A stretch of 64,000 bases of DNA from Escherichia coli (GTDB taxonomy: Bacteria > Pseudomonadota > Gammaproteobacteria > Enterobacterales > Enterobacteriaceae). The notes beneath the pieces were generated by a model. It did not search any database. It was given only the letters and a program-made list of their open reading frames with translations, and was not told the origin of the DNA. Numbering within the stretch: position 1 is the first letter of the stretch; every line of letters starts with the position of its first letter. The stretch lies in NCBI RefSeq assembly GCF_017348835.2, contig NZ_CP071375.1; one strand, given 5' to 3'. This document shows, one piece after another, positions 51,171 to 52,104 of this stretch. Both the position numbers and the translations under genes were made by a program.

Positions 51171-51589
51171 AAATTTCATCCTCTGAAAAGTGAATACTGA
51201 GTAGCGTTTAAGCAACCTTAGCTCTGCTGCAACATCAGCCCACAGGCACCAGACCAGGGGATTCATCCTGAAGAGACAGCGCAAGTGTATTGTGTTCACC
51301 GCTCATCAAAGACATCATGATGAAATGATGATATTCCGCATAAGAATGAGTCATTTTTTAAACGCAGTGCGCTGAAGTGTGGTTGGATAAAAAAGTCAAT
51401 CTATTCAGGAAACACGGGCGTATTCTTTTCTTTCGACATTCAGGCAGTCGGCAAAATAAAATGATTTACATAATCGTTTCTGATGAATATCTTCTGCTCA
51501 CATAAAAATCACACAATAACTTTGATATCGCAGATTGTTTTACTTCTACAGCATTCGTCCCCCCATTGTTGGGGAAATATAGATTGGGC

Positions 51590-51850
51590 CAGAGCTCGAA
51601 AGTTAATACCACGTTTGCACAACTCCTCCAACAGCACGACAAGATGCCACATACTGCGCACCAGTCGGTTCAGTTTACAGACTAGCAGTGCGTACCCTGC
51701 CGATAATGTCCTGAGCAGTTTTTTCAGTCCGGACCTCCTGCCACGGTTTTACGTTGAAGAGGTAACCCTGAGCACGCAGTTCTTCAGTCAGGCGTGGTGC
51801 ACCGTAACGCTGTTATTGCTGGGTAAGATCAAAAAACTTTCAGGCAGCTA
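51590..51850 (-). pseudogene. Remnant of an IS3-family transposase (orfB-like fragment)
   Basis: Minus-strand translation gives ...[22 protein letters not shown]..., resembling the conserved (Y)G.RR(I).AELRAQGY.(F)NVK segment of IS3-family transposases as I recall it; no intact ORF and no inverted repeats identified. Confidence 0.4.
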
Positions 51851-52104
51851 AGGAAAGTTGAACCAGACATTAGATGAAATATTTCAACCAATTACAGCAC
51901 TAATTCAACACCGCCAGATCGCCAAATAAATCAAGGGGTTACGTGAAAGTGCAGCCCCTTTTTCTTTGGTAGTGACAGCAAAATGGATGTAGTGTGAAGA
52001 ATAATCCCGTTTAATCAATCAATAATACATATTGTTTCAATCTACGTTATTATCTCTTTGTAAAAATTGCCATTTATTCATCATTGAAAACTGCTTTTAG
52101 AACT

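What the first reader, a model, noticed from the sequence alone, without database searches (positions are those of the whole stretch)
51300..52104. Non-coding gap containing a degenerate IS3-family transposase fragment
The ~800-bp gap between the autotransporter start and the pentapeptide-repeat gene has no credible intact ORF, but the minus-strand translation contains a segment ([22 protein letters not shown]) resembling the N-terminal part of IS3-family orfB transposases before the frame decays. This is a footprint of past mobile-element activity at the island border. The same region must also carry the autotransporter promoter.
Basis: partly seen in the sequence, partly recalled or inferred. 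Interest (0 to 1): 0.4.

Follow-up and report, generated by a model that had tools for sequence, protein, structure and literature searches.

The report
Decayed IS3 and invertase gene scraps
The gap upstream of the E. coli ypjA adhesin gene holds dead pieces of mobile DNA (a short IS3 transposase scrap, a DNA-invertase scrap already annotated in K-12 as pinH, and a worn phage attachment site); it is real but ordinary genomic debris.

Summary
The minus strand at 51747-51812 encodes [22 protein letters not shown], which is 20/22 identical to residues 62-83 of IS3 InsF. The DNA at 51740-51826 is 89-90% identical to IS3 copies (E 1e-27 pairwise, 3e-23 against 7.3 Gb of plasmids).

The window is the E. 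coli ssrA-ypjA(ehaD)-ypjCB-ileY region. The gap is colinear (about 97%) with K-12 MG1655 and present in about 3000 of 5426 complete E. coli genomes.

Almost every base is assignable:
- a 356-bp 5' module shared with the ycgH autotransporter locus (51200-51555);
- an internal fragment of a Pin/Hin-type serine invertase, codons about 42-101 (51561-51736), which is the annotated K-12 pseudogene pinH;
- the IS3 orfB scrap with a 1-nt deletion (51740-51813), fused to the first 18 nt of the IS3 left inverted repeat (51814-51831);
- 72 unassigned bases;
- a degenerate copy of the ssrA 3' end plus the hairpin arm of a Fels-2-type (P2-like) phage attachment site (51904-51986).

No part retains a catalytic domain, a second IS end or recombination sites. 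It is inert debris from layered integrations at the tmRNA gene. Interest is low.

The parts
46061..46423 (+). ssrA (tmRNA gene), the integration hot-spot. Its 3' end, 46401-46423 (TTCAACTCCCGCCAGCTCCACCA), is the sequence copied in degenerate form in the gap.
   Evidence: ARAGORN; PGAP annotation of the identical locus in PE164; fuzzy match.
46584..51170 (-). ypjA/ehaD AIDA-type autotransporter adhesin gene, using the PGAP start; the longest ORF runs on to 51299.
   Evidence: Pfam AIDA repeats in the N-terminal 200 aa.
51200..51555 (-). Autotransporter 5' module (leader or promoter region). It is 88.5% identical to the region upstream of the ycgH autotransporter pseudogene (ymgJ locus). It contains a 39-aa ORF (51235-51354) that is probably not coding.
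   Evidence: All 6 differences between the paralogous 39-aa ORFs are nonsynonymous. The ymgJ frame is interrupted by a stop in this copy.
51561..51736 (-). Internal fragment of a Pin/Hin/Cin-type serine DNA invertase (gene nt about 124-303, codons about 42-101). It is the same feature as the K-12 pseudogene pinH. The catalytic Ser region and the C-terminal DNA-binding domain are absent.
   Evidence: 87% identity over 134 nt to plasmid pinE, E 6e-44; gapped extension to 51561; 75% identity to the Fels-2 invertase, reaching 51736; BLASTP 39/53 identities, E 7e-23; Pfam Resolvase 37.6 bits, E 3e-9, profile positions 48-103 of 145; PGAP partial CDS maps to 51578-51745; K-12 pinH maps to 51509-51748.
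51737..51739 (.). Junction between the IS3 scrap and the invertase scrap; 3 nt of ambiguous origin.
   Evidence: End points of the alignments.
51740..51813 (-). IS3 orfB (insF) fragment, IS3 nt about 543-618. A 1-nt deletion in the A-run after FNVK shifts the frame.
51814..51831 (-). Tip of the IS3 left terminal inverted repeat, TGATCTTACCCAGCAATA (18/18). It is joined directly to orfB, so IS3 nt 19 to about 542 (all of orfA and the first 57 or so codons of orfB) are deleted at a TTACCCxG microhomology.
   Evidence: 19/19 match to the left end of the Shigella IS3H copy and 15/15 to the K-12 IS3A end; sequence display.
51832..51903 (.). 72 nt with no homologue outside this chromosomal locus. 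This is the DNA into which IS3 inserted.
   Evidence: Only orthologous chromosomes match.
51904..51924 (+). Degenerate direct copy of the ssrA 3' end, TTCAACaCCGCCAGatCgCCA (3 substitutions and 2 deletions relative to 23 nt).
   Evidence: K-12 carries a differently decayed version...GCCAGCCCACCA.
51925..51986 (+). Arm of a Fels-2-type (P2-like) phage attachment site that follows ssrA in lysogens. It includes a hairpin at 51933-51961 with a T-tract to 51967.
   Evidence: 83-85 nt at 87-89% identity to ssrA plus prophage junctions and to phage attP. Most phage matches, including the best 17, span window 51904-51986; the others start further in, and every listed match ends at 51986. E reaches 4e-21. 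Fels-2 attP annotation and sequence. Fold -16 to -18 kcal/mol, z about -2.
51987..52104 (.). AT-rich 3' flank of ypjCB; no other assignment.
52105..53559 (-). ypjCB (DUF5507 plus DUF5508 protein).

Best explanation
The gap is non-functional debris left by successive mobile elements that used the tmRNA gene (ssrA) as their landing site. Read on the minus strand from the ypjCB side, it contains:
- the left junction of an old Fels-2-like P2-family prophage (a worn ssrA 3' end plus the phage's hairpin arm);
- 72 nt of otherwise unknown DNA;
- an IS3 element reduced to the 18-nt tip of its left inverted repeat fused to about 75 nt of orfB;
- directly after that, about 175 nt from the middle of a Pin-type serine invertase gene (K-12 pinH);
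- directly after that, the 356-bp 5' region that belongs to the ypjA/ycgH type of autotransporter gene.

Shown: the identity and limits of each piece, the same arrangement in K-12, and its presence in about 55% of complete E. coli genomes.

Inferred history: an IS3 copy inserted near the right end of an ssrA-linked element. Later, illegitimate deletions removed most of the IS (one at a TTACCCxG microhomology), the stretch from the IS interior to the invertase interior, and the invertase 3' part. Later integrations at ssrA moved the old attachment-site remnant about 5.5 kb away from ssrA.

Nothing here can transpose or recombine. The only plausible present-day roles are passive: the 5' module may carry the ypjA promoter or leader, and the hairpin may terminate ypjCB transcripts.
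For: IS3 piece.

IRL tip and internal deletion.

Invertase piece. Existing annotation as pinH or partial recombinase.

Same junctions in K-12 and in strain XH990.

Population frequency: 3002 of 5426 genomes carry at least 80% of the 805-bp query.

Autotransporter module.

Attachment-site remnant.

Tandem elements at ssrA in another strain: NCTC9038 has ssrA, a P2-like prophage, an exact ssrA-3' copy, an integrase fragment, then ypjA.

Whole 46575-57333 block absent between ssrA and glaH in a strain lacking ypjA.

No evidence of function: no Rfam family, no hix-like sites, no notable inverted repeats, no promoter-like sites above expectation.
Against: - The order of historical events is inferred, not observed. 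No genome with an intermediate state (full IS3 or full invertase at this site) was found or systematically sought.
- The ssrA-like 21-mer alone is weak evidence. Matches with up to 5 edits occur 0.3 times per shuffled window. Its significance rests on the adjoining 62-nt phage arm.
- The invertase scrap lies on the side of the attachment remnant opposite to where a Fels-2-type prophage would place it. Its source element therefore remains unidentified.
- The 356-bp module is 90-97% conserved between paralogues over about 200 nt. That could mean a function not captured by calling the gap debris.
Confidence: 0.88

Rival explanations
1. The IS3 resemblance is a chance similarity in non-coding DNA.
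For: Profile hits are sub-threshold: HTH_21 at 20.1 bits against a cut-off of 28.1, and transpos_IS3 at E 0.073.
Against: 88 nt match at 89-90% identity, E 1e-27 to 9e-29 pairwise and 3e-23 database-wide. An adjacent exact 18-nt IS3 terminal repeat is also present.
Confidence: 0.01
2. The invertase remnant marks a former or present invertible (phase-variable) promoter switch controlling the ypjA adhesin, as Hin controls flagellin.
For: A Pin/Hin-family fragment lies about 400 bp upstream of an adhesin gene, on the same strand. Adhesins are often phase-variable (general knowledge).
Against: Only codons about 42-101 survive; the catalytic N-terminus and the DNA-binding C-terminus are missing. 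No hix/gix-like crossover site exists in 64 kb. No long inverted repeats flank the region. The arrangement has the same orientation in the window, K-12 and XH990.
Confidence: 0.02
3. The gap encodes a real small protein, either the 39-aa ORF that PGAP names 'ATPase' or 'hypothetical protein', or the 122-aa plus-strand ORF.
For: PGAP calls the 39-aa ORF in many genomes. The ORF is open in both the ypjA and the ycgH copies of the module.
Against: Neither ORF has a Pfam hit. All 6 nucleotide differences between the paralogous 39-aa ORFs change the amino acid, and the one difference among the ypjA orthologues compared (window versus K-12 and XH990) does too. The 122-aa ORF is antisense to two pseudogene scraps of unrelated origin.
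Confidence: 0.05
4. The 51904-51986 block is the original E. coli ssrA 3' end and native terminator, displaced by an insertion, rather than a phage-derived junction.
For: The block is a direct repeat of the ssrA 3' end at the far side of ssrA-linked DNA. A similar hairpin lies near iroB in a Salmonella record.
Against: The hairpin arm is part of attP in free Fels-2-type phage genomes from five or more genera. It follows ssrA in only about 171 of 5426 E. coli genomes; in the two examined a P2-like prophage follows it. In a strain lacking the ypjA block, ssrA is followed by a different terminator that is shared with this window at 46540-46570.
Confidence: 0.1

Closest known systems
pinH (b2648) pseudogene of E. 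coli K-12 MG1655
   Same: It is the orthologous feature. K-12 2783065-2783304 aligns to window 51509-51748 within a colinear, about 97% identical gap, with the same junctions.
   Different: The last 50 nt or so of the K-12 annotation (window 51509-51555) fall in the autotransporter 5' module, not in invertase-derived DNA. The adjoining IS3 scrap and attachment remnant are not annotated in the three RefSeq records examined.
IS3 (IS3 family, IS3 group; K-12 IS3A insE/insF, Shigella 'IS3H')
   Same: 18/18 nt of the left terminal repeat; 88 nt of orfB at 89-90% identity; 20/22 residues of InsF 62-83.
   Different: Only about 93 of 1258 nt remain. There is no orfA, frameshift site, DDE domain, right repeat or target duplication. 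About 10% divergence from active copies indicates an old insertion.
Pin/Hin/Gin/Cin DNA invertases (e14 Pin, P1 Cin, Fels-2 invertase)
   Same: The central part of the resolvase catalytic domain is 74% identical in protein and 87% in DNA to pinE-type genes.
   Different: The N-terminal 41 codons, including the active-site serine region, and the C-terminal half are absent. Conserved residues are altered. No crossover sites or invertible segment are present.
psaA of K-12 and Fels-2 attL: ssrA 3'-end duplications at the ends of ssrA-integrated elements
   Same: A direct repeat of the ssrA 3' end is followed by the Fels-2-type phage arm, as in lysogens.
   Different: The core is degenerate (about 18 of 23 nt). 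It is separated from ssrA by 5.5 kb of non-phage DNA. The prophage it belonged to is gone beyond 62 nt.

Membership tests
IS3 family insertion sequence | Terminal inverted repeat starting 5'-TG, matching a known member | tested here: met
   TGATCTTACCCAGCAATA at 51831..51814 gives 19/19 (including one flanking T) to the Shigella IS3H left end and 15/15 to the K-12 IS3A end.
IS3 family insertion sequence | Second (right) inverted repeat and 3-bp target duplication | tested here: not met
   BLAST with word size 7 of the gap against full IS3 finds only the IRL tip and the orfB piece. With a single end, a target duplication cannot be assessed.
IS3 family insertion sequence | orfA-orfB arrangement with programmed -1 frameshift | tested here: not met
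   IS3 nt 19 to about 542 (orfA and the frameshift region) are absent.
IS3 family insertion sequence | DDE (rve) catalytic domain in orfB | tested here: not met
   Homology ends at IS3 nt 618, InsF residue about 86. Pfam finds only HTH_21.
IS3 family insertion sequence | orfB N-terminal HTH_21 region | tested here: inconclusive
   Pfam HTH_21 scores E 7.9e-4 at 20.1 bits, below the 28.1 cut-off. Derivation from IS3 is nevertheless established by DNA identity and 20/22 residues.
Serine recombinase, DNA-invertase subfamily (Pin/Hin/Gin/Cin) | Resolvase N-terminal catalytic domain | tested here: met
   PF00239 scores 37.6 bits (cut-off 23.3), but only profile positions 48-103 of 145 are covered. 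BLASTP to pinE gives 39/53 identities.
Serine recombinase, DNA-invertase subfamily (Pin/Hin/Gin/Cin) | Active-site serine near residue 9-10 | tested here: not met
   The fragment begins at about codon 42; the upstream sequence is IS3-derived.
Serine recombinase, DNA-invertase subfamily (Pin/Hin/Gin/Cin) | C-terminal helix-turn-helix DNA-binding domain | tested here: not met
   Homology ends at about codon 101, where the autotransporter module begins.
Serine recombinase, DNA-invertase subfamily (Pin/Hin/Gin/Cin) | Paired 26-bp crossover sites (hix/gix/pix) flanking an invertible segment | tested here: not met
   There are 0 matches to the consensus with up to 3 mismatches in the 64-kb window. 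The one core-motif match lies at 41586 and is within chance expectation. No flanking inverted repeats were found. The consensus itself was recalled from memory.
tmRNA-gene (ssrA) attachment-site remnant of a Fels-2-type P2-like prophage | Direct repeat of the ssrA 3' end | tested here: met
   51904-51924 against 46401-46423 shows 3 substitutions and 2 deletions, on the same strand. Alone this is weak: 0.3 such hits per shuffled window.
tmRNA-gene (ssrA) attachment-site remnant of a Fels-2-type P2-like prophage | Phage arm of attP immediately following the core | tested here: met
   35 phage records match within 51904-51986, and most span exactly that block. Identity to Fels-2 attP is 87%, E 1e-23.
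tmRNA-gene (ssrA) attachment-site remnant of a Fels-2-type P2-like prophage | Tyrosine integrase and phage genes adjacent | tested here: not met
   No integrase or P2-like gene lies between ssrA and ileY in the identical PE164 locus. Homology to phages stops at 51986.

The most novel reading that the evidence does not exclude
The 356-bp block next to ypjA (51200-51555) is kept at 90-97% identity with the ycgH locus over about 200 nt, although its ORFs look non-coding. It could be a functional cis-regulatory leader or RNA element specific to this autotransporter lineage. In that case the IS3 and invertase debris directly upstream could have reshaped ypjA transcription, for instance by cutting off or replacing upstream regulatory DNA.
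Probability: 0.12. Interest if true: 0.35.

Novelty: already known. Interest (0 to 1): 0.1.

Why it matters
It matters little beyond annotation hygiene and local history.

- The locus is in E. coli K-12, and its largest piece has long been annotated as the pseudogene pinH.
- The IS3 scrap, its inverted-repeat tip and the Fels-2-type attachment remnant are not annotated in the RefSeq records examined. They add detail to how the ssrA-ypjA-ileY variable region was built by layered integrations and deletions.
- They also show that the K-12 pinH coordinates overrun into unrelated DNA.
- For anyone studying ypjA/ehaD expression, the map shows which 356 bp are native to the adhesin gene and which upstream bases are debris.

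Tried and rejected
- Rfam scan of 50900-52400 at E<=1: no family matched.
- hix/gix-type crossover consensus and its core motif: nothing in or near the gap. Inverted and direct repeat search: only short, chance-level pairs.
- Exact 28-mer scan of one genome per species, to date the mosaic outside E. coli: the only hit was a 2.8-kb contig in a Planococcaceae MAG, colinear with the window at 92%. It is uninformative.
- gSELEX RpoS peak listed between ypjA and ileY (PMC5493296). By my own mapping to the older K-12 coordinate system it lies upstream of ypjC, not in this gap, so I did not use it.
- Williams 2003, 'Traffic at the tmRNA gene', recalled from memory as relevant: not held in the library.
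- ycgV upstream region: no similarity to the ypjA module.
- The idea that the hairpin is the native ssrA terminator: rejected after reading Fels-2 attP and a ypjA-less strain.
- A shared TTCA(A/T)CCAATTACAG motif between the gap (51883-51897) and the 333-bp filler of the ypjA-less strain: my own estimate of chance is about 0.03. No consistent junction model emerged, so it is left unexplained.

Full report
**Where we are.** The window is an Escherichia coli chromosome segment. The 805-bp finding is 100% identical to strains PE164 and F2_81, and at least 80% of it is present in 3002 of 5426 complete E. coli genomes. In the identical PE164 locus, PGAP annotates the following in order: smpB, ssrA, ypjA (adhesin-like autotransporter YpjA/EhaD), a 39-aa 'ATPase', a partial 'recombinase family protein', a DUF5507 protein, tRNA-Ile, an amylase-family gene and glaH. 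In window coordinates:
- ssrA is 46061-46423 on the plus strand.
- ypjA is 46584-51170 on the minus strand.
- The next gene is 52105-53559 on the minus strand.
- The tRNA is 54310-54385.

The true gap is therefore 51171-52104. It is colinear with K-12 MG1655 at about 97% identity. There, the stretch corresponding to window 51509-51748 is the annotated pseudogene pinH, b2648.

**The observation.** The minus strand reads [22 protein letters not shown] at 51812..51747. BLASTP gives 20/22 identities to residues 62-83 of K-12 IS3 InsF. At the DNA level, 51740-51826 matches IS3 copies at 89-90%. Pairwise E-values are 1e-27 against K-12 IS3A and 9e-29 against a Shigella sonnei copy that PGAP labels IS3H. 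Against 7.3 Gb of plasmid sequence the same stretch hits 1491 records at E down to 3e-23, annotated for example as 'IS3 ORF2'. Profile searches alone would not have settled the matter: HTH_21 scores 20.1 bits, below the cut-off, and NCBIfam transpos_IS3 scores E 0.073. The resemblance is real homology, not chance.

**What the IS3 piece looks like.** The alignment shows a 1-nt deletion in the A-run right after the FNVK codons (AACGT-AAAACC). Homology then continues for only about 10 nt. On the other side, the 18 nt TGATCTTACCCAGCAATA (51831..51814) are identical to the tip of the IS3 left terminal repeat, and they run straight into orfB at IS3 nt about 543. The two joined IS3 positions share TTACCCxG, so a microhomology-mediated internal deletion of about 524 nt is the simplest reading. 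That deletion would remove all of orfA and the first 57 or so codons of orfB; this step is inference. No right repeat, no DDE domain and no orfA remain. About 93 of 1258 nt survive, roughly 10% diverged from active copies.

Three bases beyond the IS3 piece the minus strand switches to the middle of a Pin/Hin/Cin-type serine DNA invertase gene. The evidence is:
- 134 nt at 87% identity to plasmid-borne pinE, E 6e-44.
- 75% identity to the Fels-2 invertase, reaching 51736.
- A gapped extension to about 51561.
- Protein identity of 39/53, E 7e-23.
- Pfam Resolvase at 37.6 bits, covering only profile positions 48-103 of 145.
- tblastn hits to Cin, the Fels-2 invertase and other phage invertases.

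The fragment corresponds to codons about 42-101 of 184. The active-site serine region and the DNA-binding C-terminus are gone. This is the K-12 pinH pseudogene and the PGAP partial recombinase CDS, which maps to 51578-51745. I tested whether it could be the relic of an invertible switch for the adhesin. There are no hix/gix-like sites in the window and no flanking inverted repeats. The orientation is the same in the three strains aligned.

**The part next to ypjA.** Window 51200-51555 is 88.5% identical (E 1e-130) to the region upstream of the ycgH autotransporter pseudogene, near minE, where PGAP places ymgJ and a paralogous 39-aa ORF. Identity reaches 90-97% over 51201-51400. It drops to background on both sides: at about 51200, where ycgH carries an internal deletion into its beta-barrel part, and at about 51555, where the invertase scrap begins.
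- The ymgJ frame is closed by a stop in the ypjA copy.
- All six differences between the two 39-aa ORFs are nonsynonymous.

I therefore regard both ORFs as non-coding and the block as the native 5' leader or promoter region of this autotransporter lineage. The consensus scan found no promoter-like site on the ypjA strand, so the promoter itself remains unmapped. The last 50 nt or so of the K-12 pinH annotation fall in this block rather than in invertase-derived DNA.

**The island border.** Searching the remaining 273 bp turned up an 83-nt match (51904-51986, 89%) to DNA at the 3' end of ssrA in strain 13P477T, where a P2-like prophage follows ssrA.
- The first 21 nt, TTCAACaCCGCCAGatCgCCA, are a degenerate direct copy of the ssrA 3' end.
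- The next 62 nt are the hairpin-containing arm that follows ssrA in such lysogens.
- 35 phage records of the Fels-2 type, from Salmonella, Escherichia, Klebsiella, Cronobacter and Yersinia, match within this block and nowhere else in 51829-51990. Most of them, including the best 17, span exactly 51904-51986. E-values reach 4e-21.
- The Fels-2 record itself annotates the site as attP, with 87% identity over 85 nt, E 1e-23.

I first thought the hairpin might be the native ssrA terminator. It is not. It follows ssrA in only about 171 genomes; in the two I examined, a P2-like prophage follows it. In a strain without ypjA (ATCC 25922 lineage), ssrA is followed by the same 150 nt and a different terminator, as in this window. 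After that come 333 bp of other DNA and then glaH, so window 46575-57333 is absent there.

The block is thus best read as the left junction of an old Fels-2-like prophage, later pushed away from ssrA by further insertions. Tandem arrays of this kind are visible in NCTC9038: ssrA, a P2-like prophage, an exact ssrA-3' copy, an integrase fragment with ISEc52, then ypjA. The 21-mer alone would not be convincing, since 0.3 such hits occur per shuffled window. The adjoining arm makes the case. The invertase scrap lies on the opposite side of this remnant from where a Fels-2 prophage would carry its invertase, so its source element is unknown.

**Mechanism and status.** Nothing in the gap can act as a mobile element or recombinase. 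The likely sequence of events is inferred: integration(s) at ssrA, an IS3 insertion 72 bp from the attachment site, then several illegitimate deletions that fused IS tip to orfB, orfB to the invertase middle, and the invertase to the autotransporter leader. All junctions are shared by K-12, XH990 and the window, so they predate much of E. coli diversification. IS1 insertions and resistance-region rearrangements seen at this spot in some strains are later events.

**Novelty and verdict.** The feature is ordinary: a pseudogene mosaic in a well-studied K-12 region, with its main component already named pinH. The unannotated details are of local annotation interest only: the IS3 scrap with its repeat tip, the Fels-2-type attachment remnant, and the overrun of the pinH coordinates. 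Interest is 0.1.

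Noticed in passing
window 51200-51555; L009:1501-1855: The 356 bp upstream of ypjA are 88.5% identical (90-97% over about 200 nt) to the region upstream of the ycgH autotransporter pseudogene, where ymgJ is annotated. The coding starts of the two genes are not co-conserved, because ycgH is internally deleted. This may be a conserved leader or regulatory block of the lineage.
   Followed up: partly
window 51235-51354 (minus): PGAP names this 39-aa ORF 'ATPase' in PE164 and 'hypothetical protein' elsewhere. All differences between paralogues and orthologues are nonsynonymous and there is no Pfam hit, so it is probably a spurious gene call.
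   Followed up: partly
window 51509-51555 (K-12 NC_000913.3 2783065-2783111): The 3' end of the K-12 pinH pseudogene annotation extends into DNA that is homologous to the ycgH upstream region, not to invertase genes.
   Followed up: yes
window 46575-57333: The whole ypjA, gap, ypjCB, ileY and amylase block (10.8 kb, GC down to 0.28-0.35 in its right half) is replaced by 333 bp between ssrA and glaH in an ATCC 25922-type strain. About 44% of complete E. coli genomes lack the ypjA/ypjCB part.
   Followed up: partly
window 52105-53559 (minus): The neighbouring gene is an intact fused YpjCB (Pfam DUF5507 plus DUF5508), which in K-12 is split into ypjC and ypjB. Pfam gives no pentapeptide hit, although residues around 390-420 look repeat-like by eye.
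   Followed up: partly
window 54310-54385 (minus): ARAGORN calls this tRNA-Met (CAT), while PGAP calls the identical gene tRNA-Ile (ileY). From general knowledge, this is the usual CAT/lysidine ambiguity.
   Followed up: no
L011 (NZ_AP027503.1, 'plasmid' pLR-25_3, 13,989 bp): This small circular record consists of a CP4-57-like prophage end, a partly deleted ypjA, the ypjA upstream module and pin' up to window 51759, then IS1B, IS3 and IS1B. It is either an IS1-mediated excised circle or an assembly artefact.
   Followed up: partly
L015 (E. coli PD23): An IS1-bounded resistance region (tet(B), a catA fragment, TnAs3) abuts the locus at window 51888 and replaces the ypjA side.
   Followed up: partly
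L010 (DEQI01000374.1): A 2.8-kb contig binned to a Planococcaceae MAG is colinear with window 51453-54355 at 92% identity. It is almost certainly Escherichia DNA mis-binned or contaminating the MAG.
   Followed up: partly
L013:2470-2545 (Salmonella Senftenberg NCTC10384 'plasmid 2', near iroB): A similar hairpin, preceded by a short GCCAGC...AAATAAA remnant, lies next to iroB. This suggests a comparable Fels-2-type attachment relic at the far end of the Salmonella ssrA-linked region.
   Followed up: partly
window 51883-51897; L016:46276-46262 (minus): The motif TTCAACCAATTACAG just left of the ssrA-like core recurs with one mismatch in the 333-bp filler of the ypjA-less strain, and partly in the Salmonella relic. 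My estimate of chance is about 0.03. It remains unexplained.
   Followed up: no
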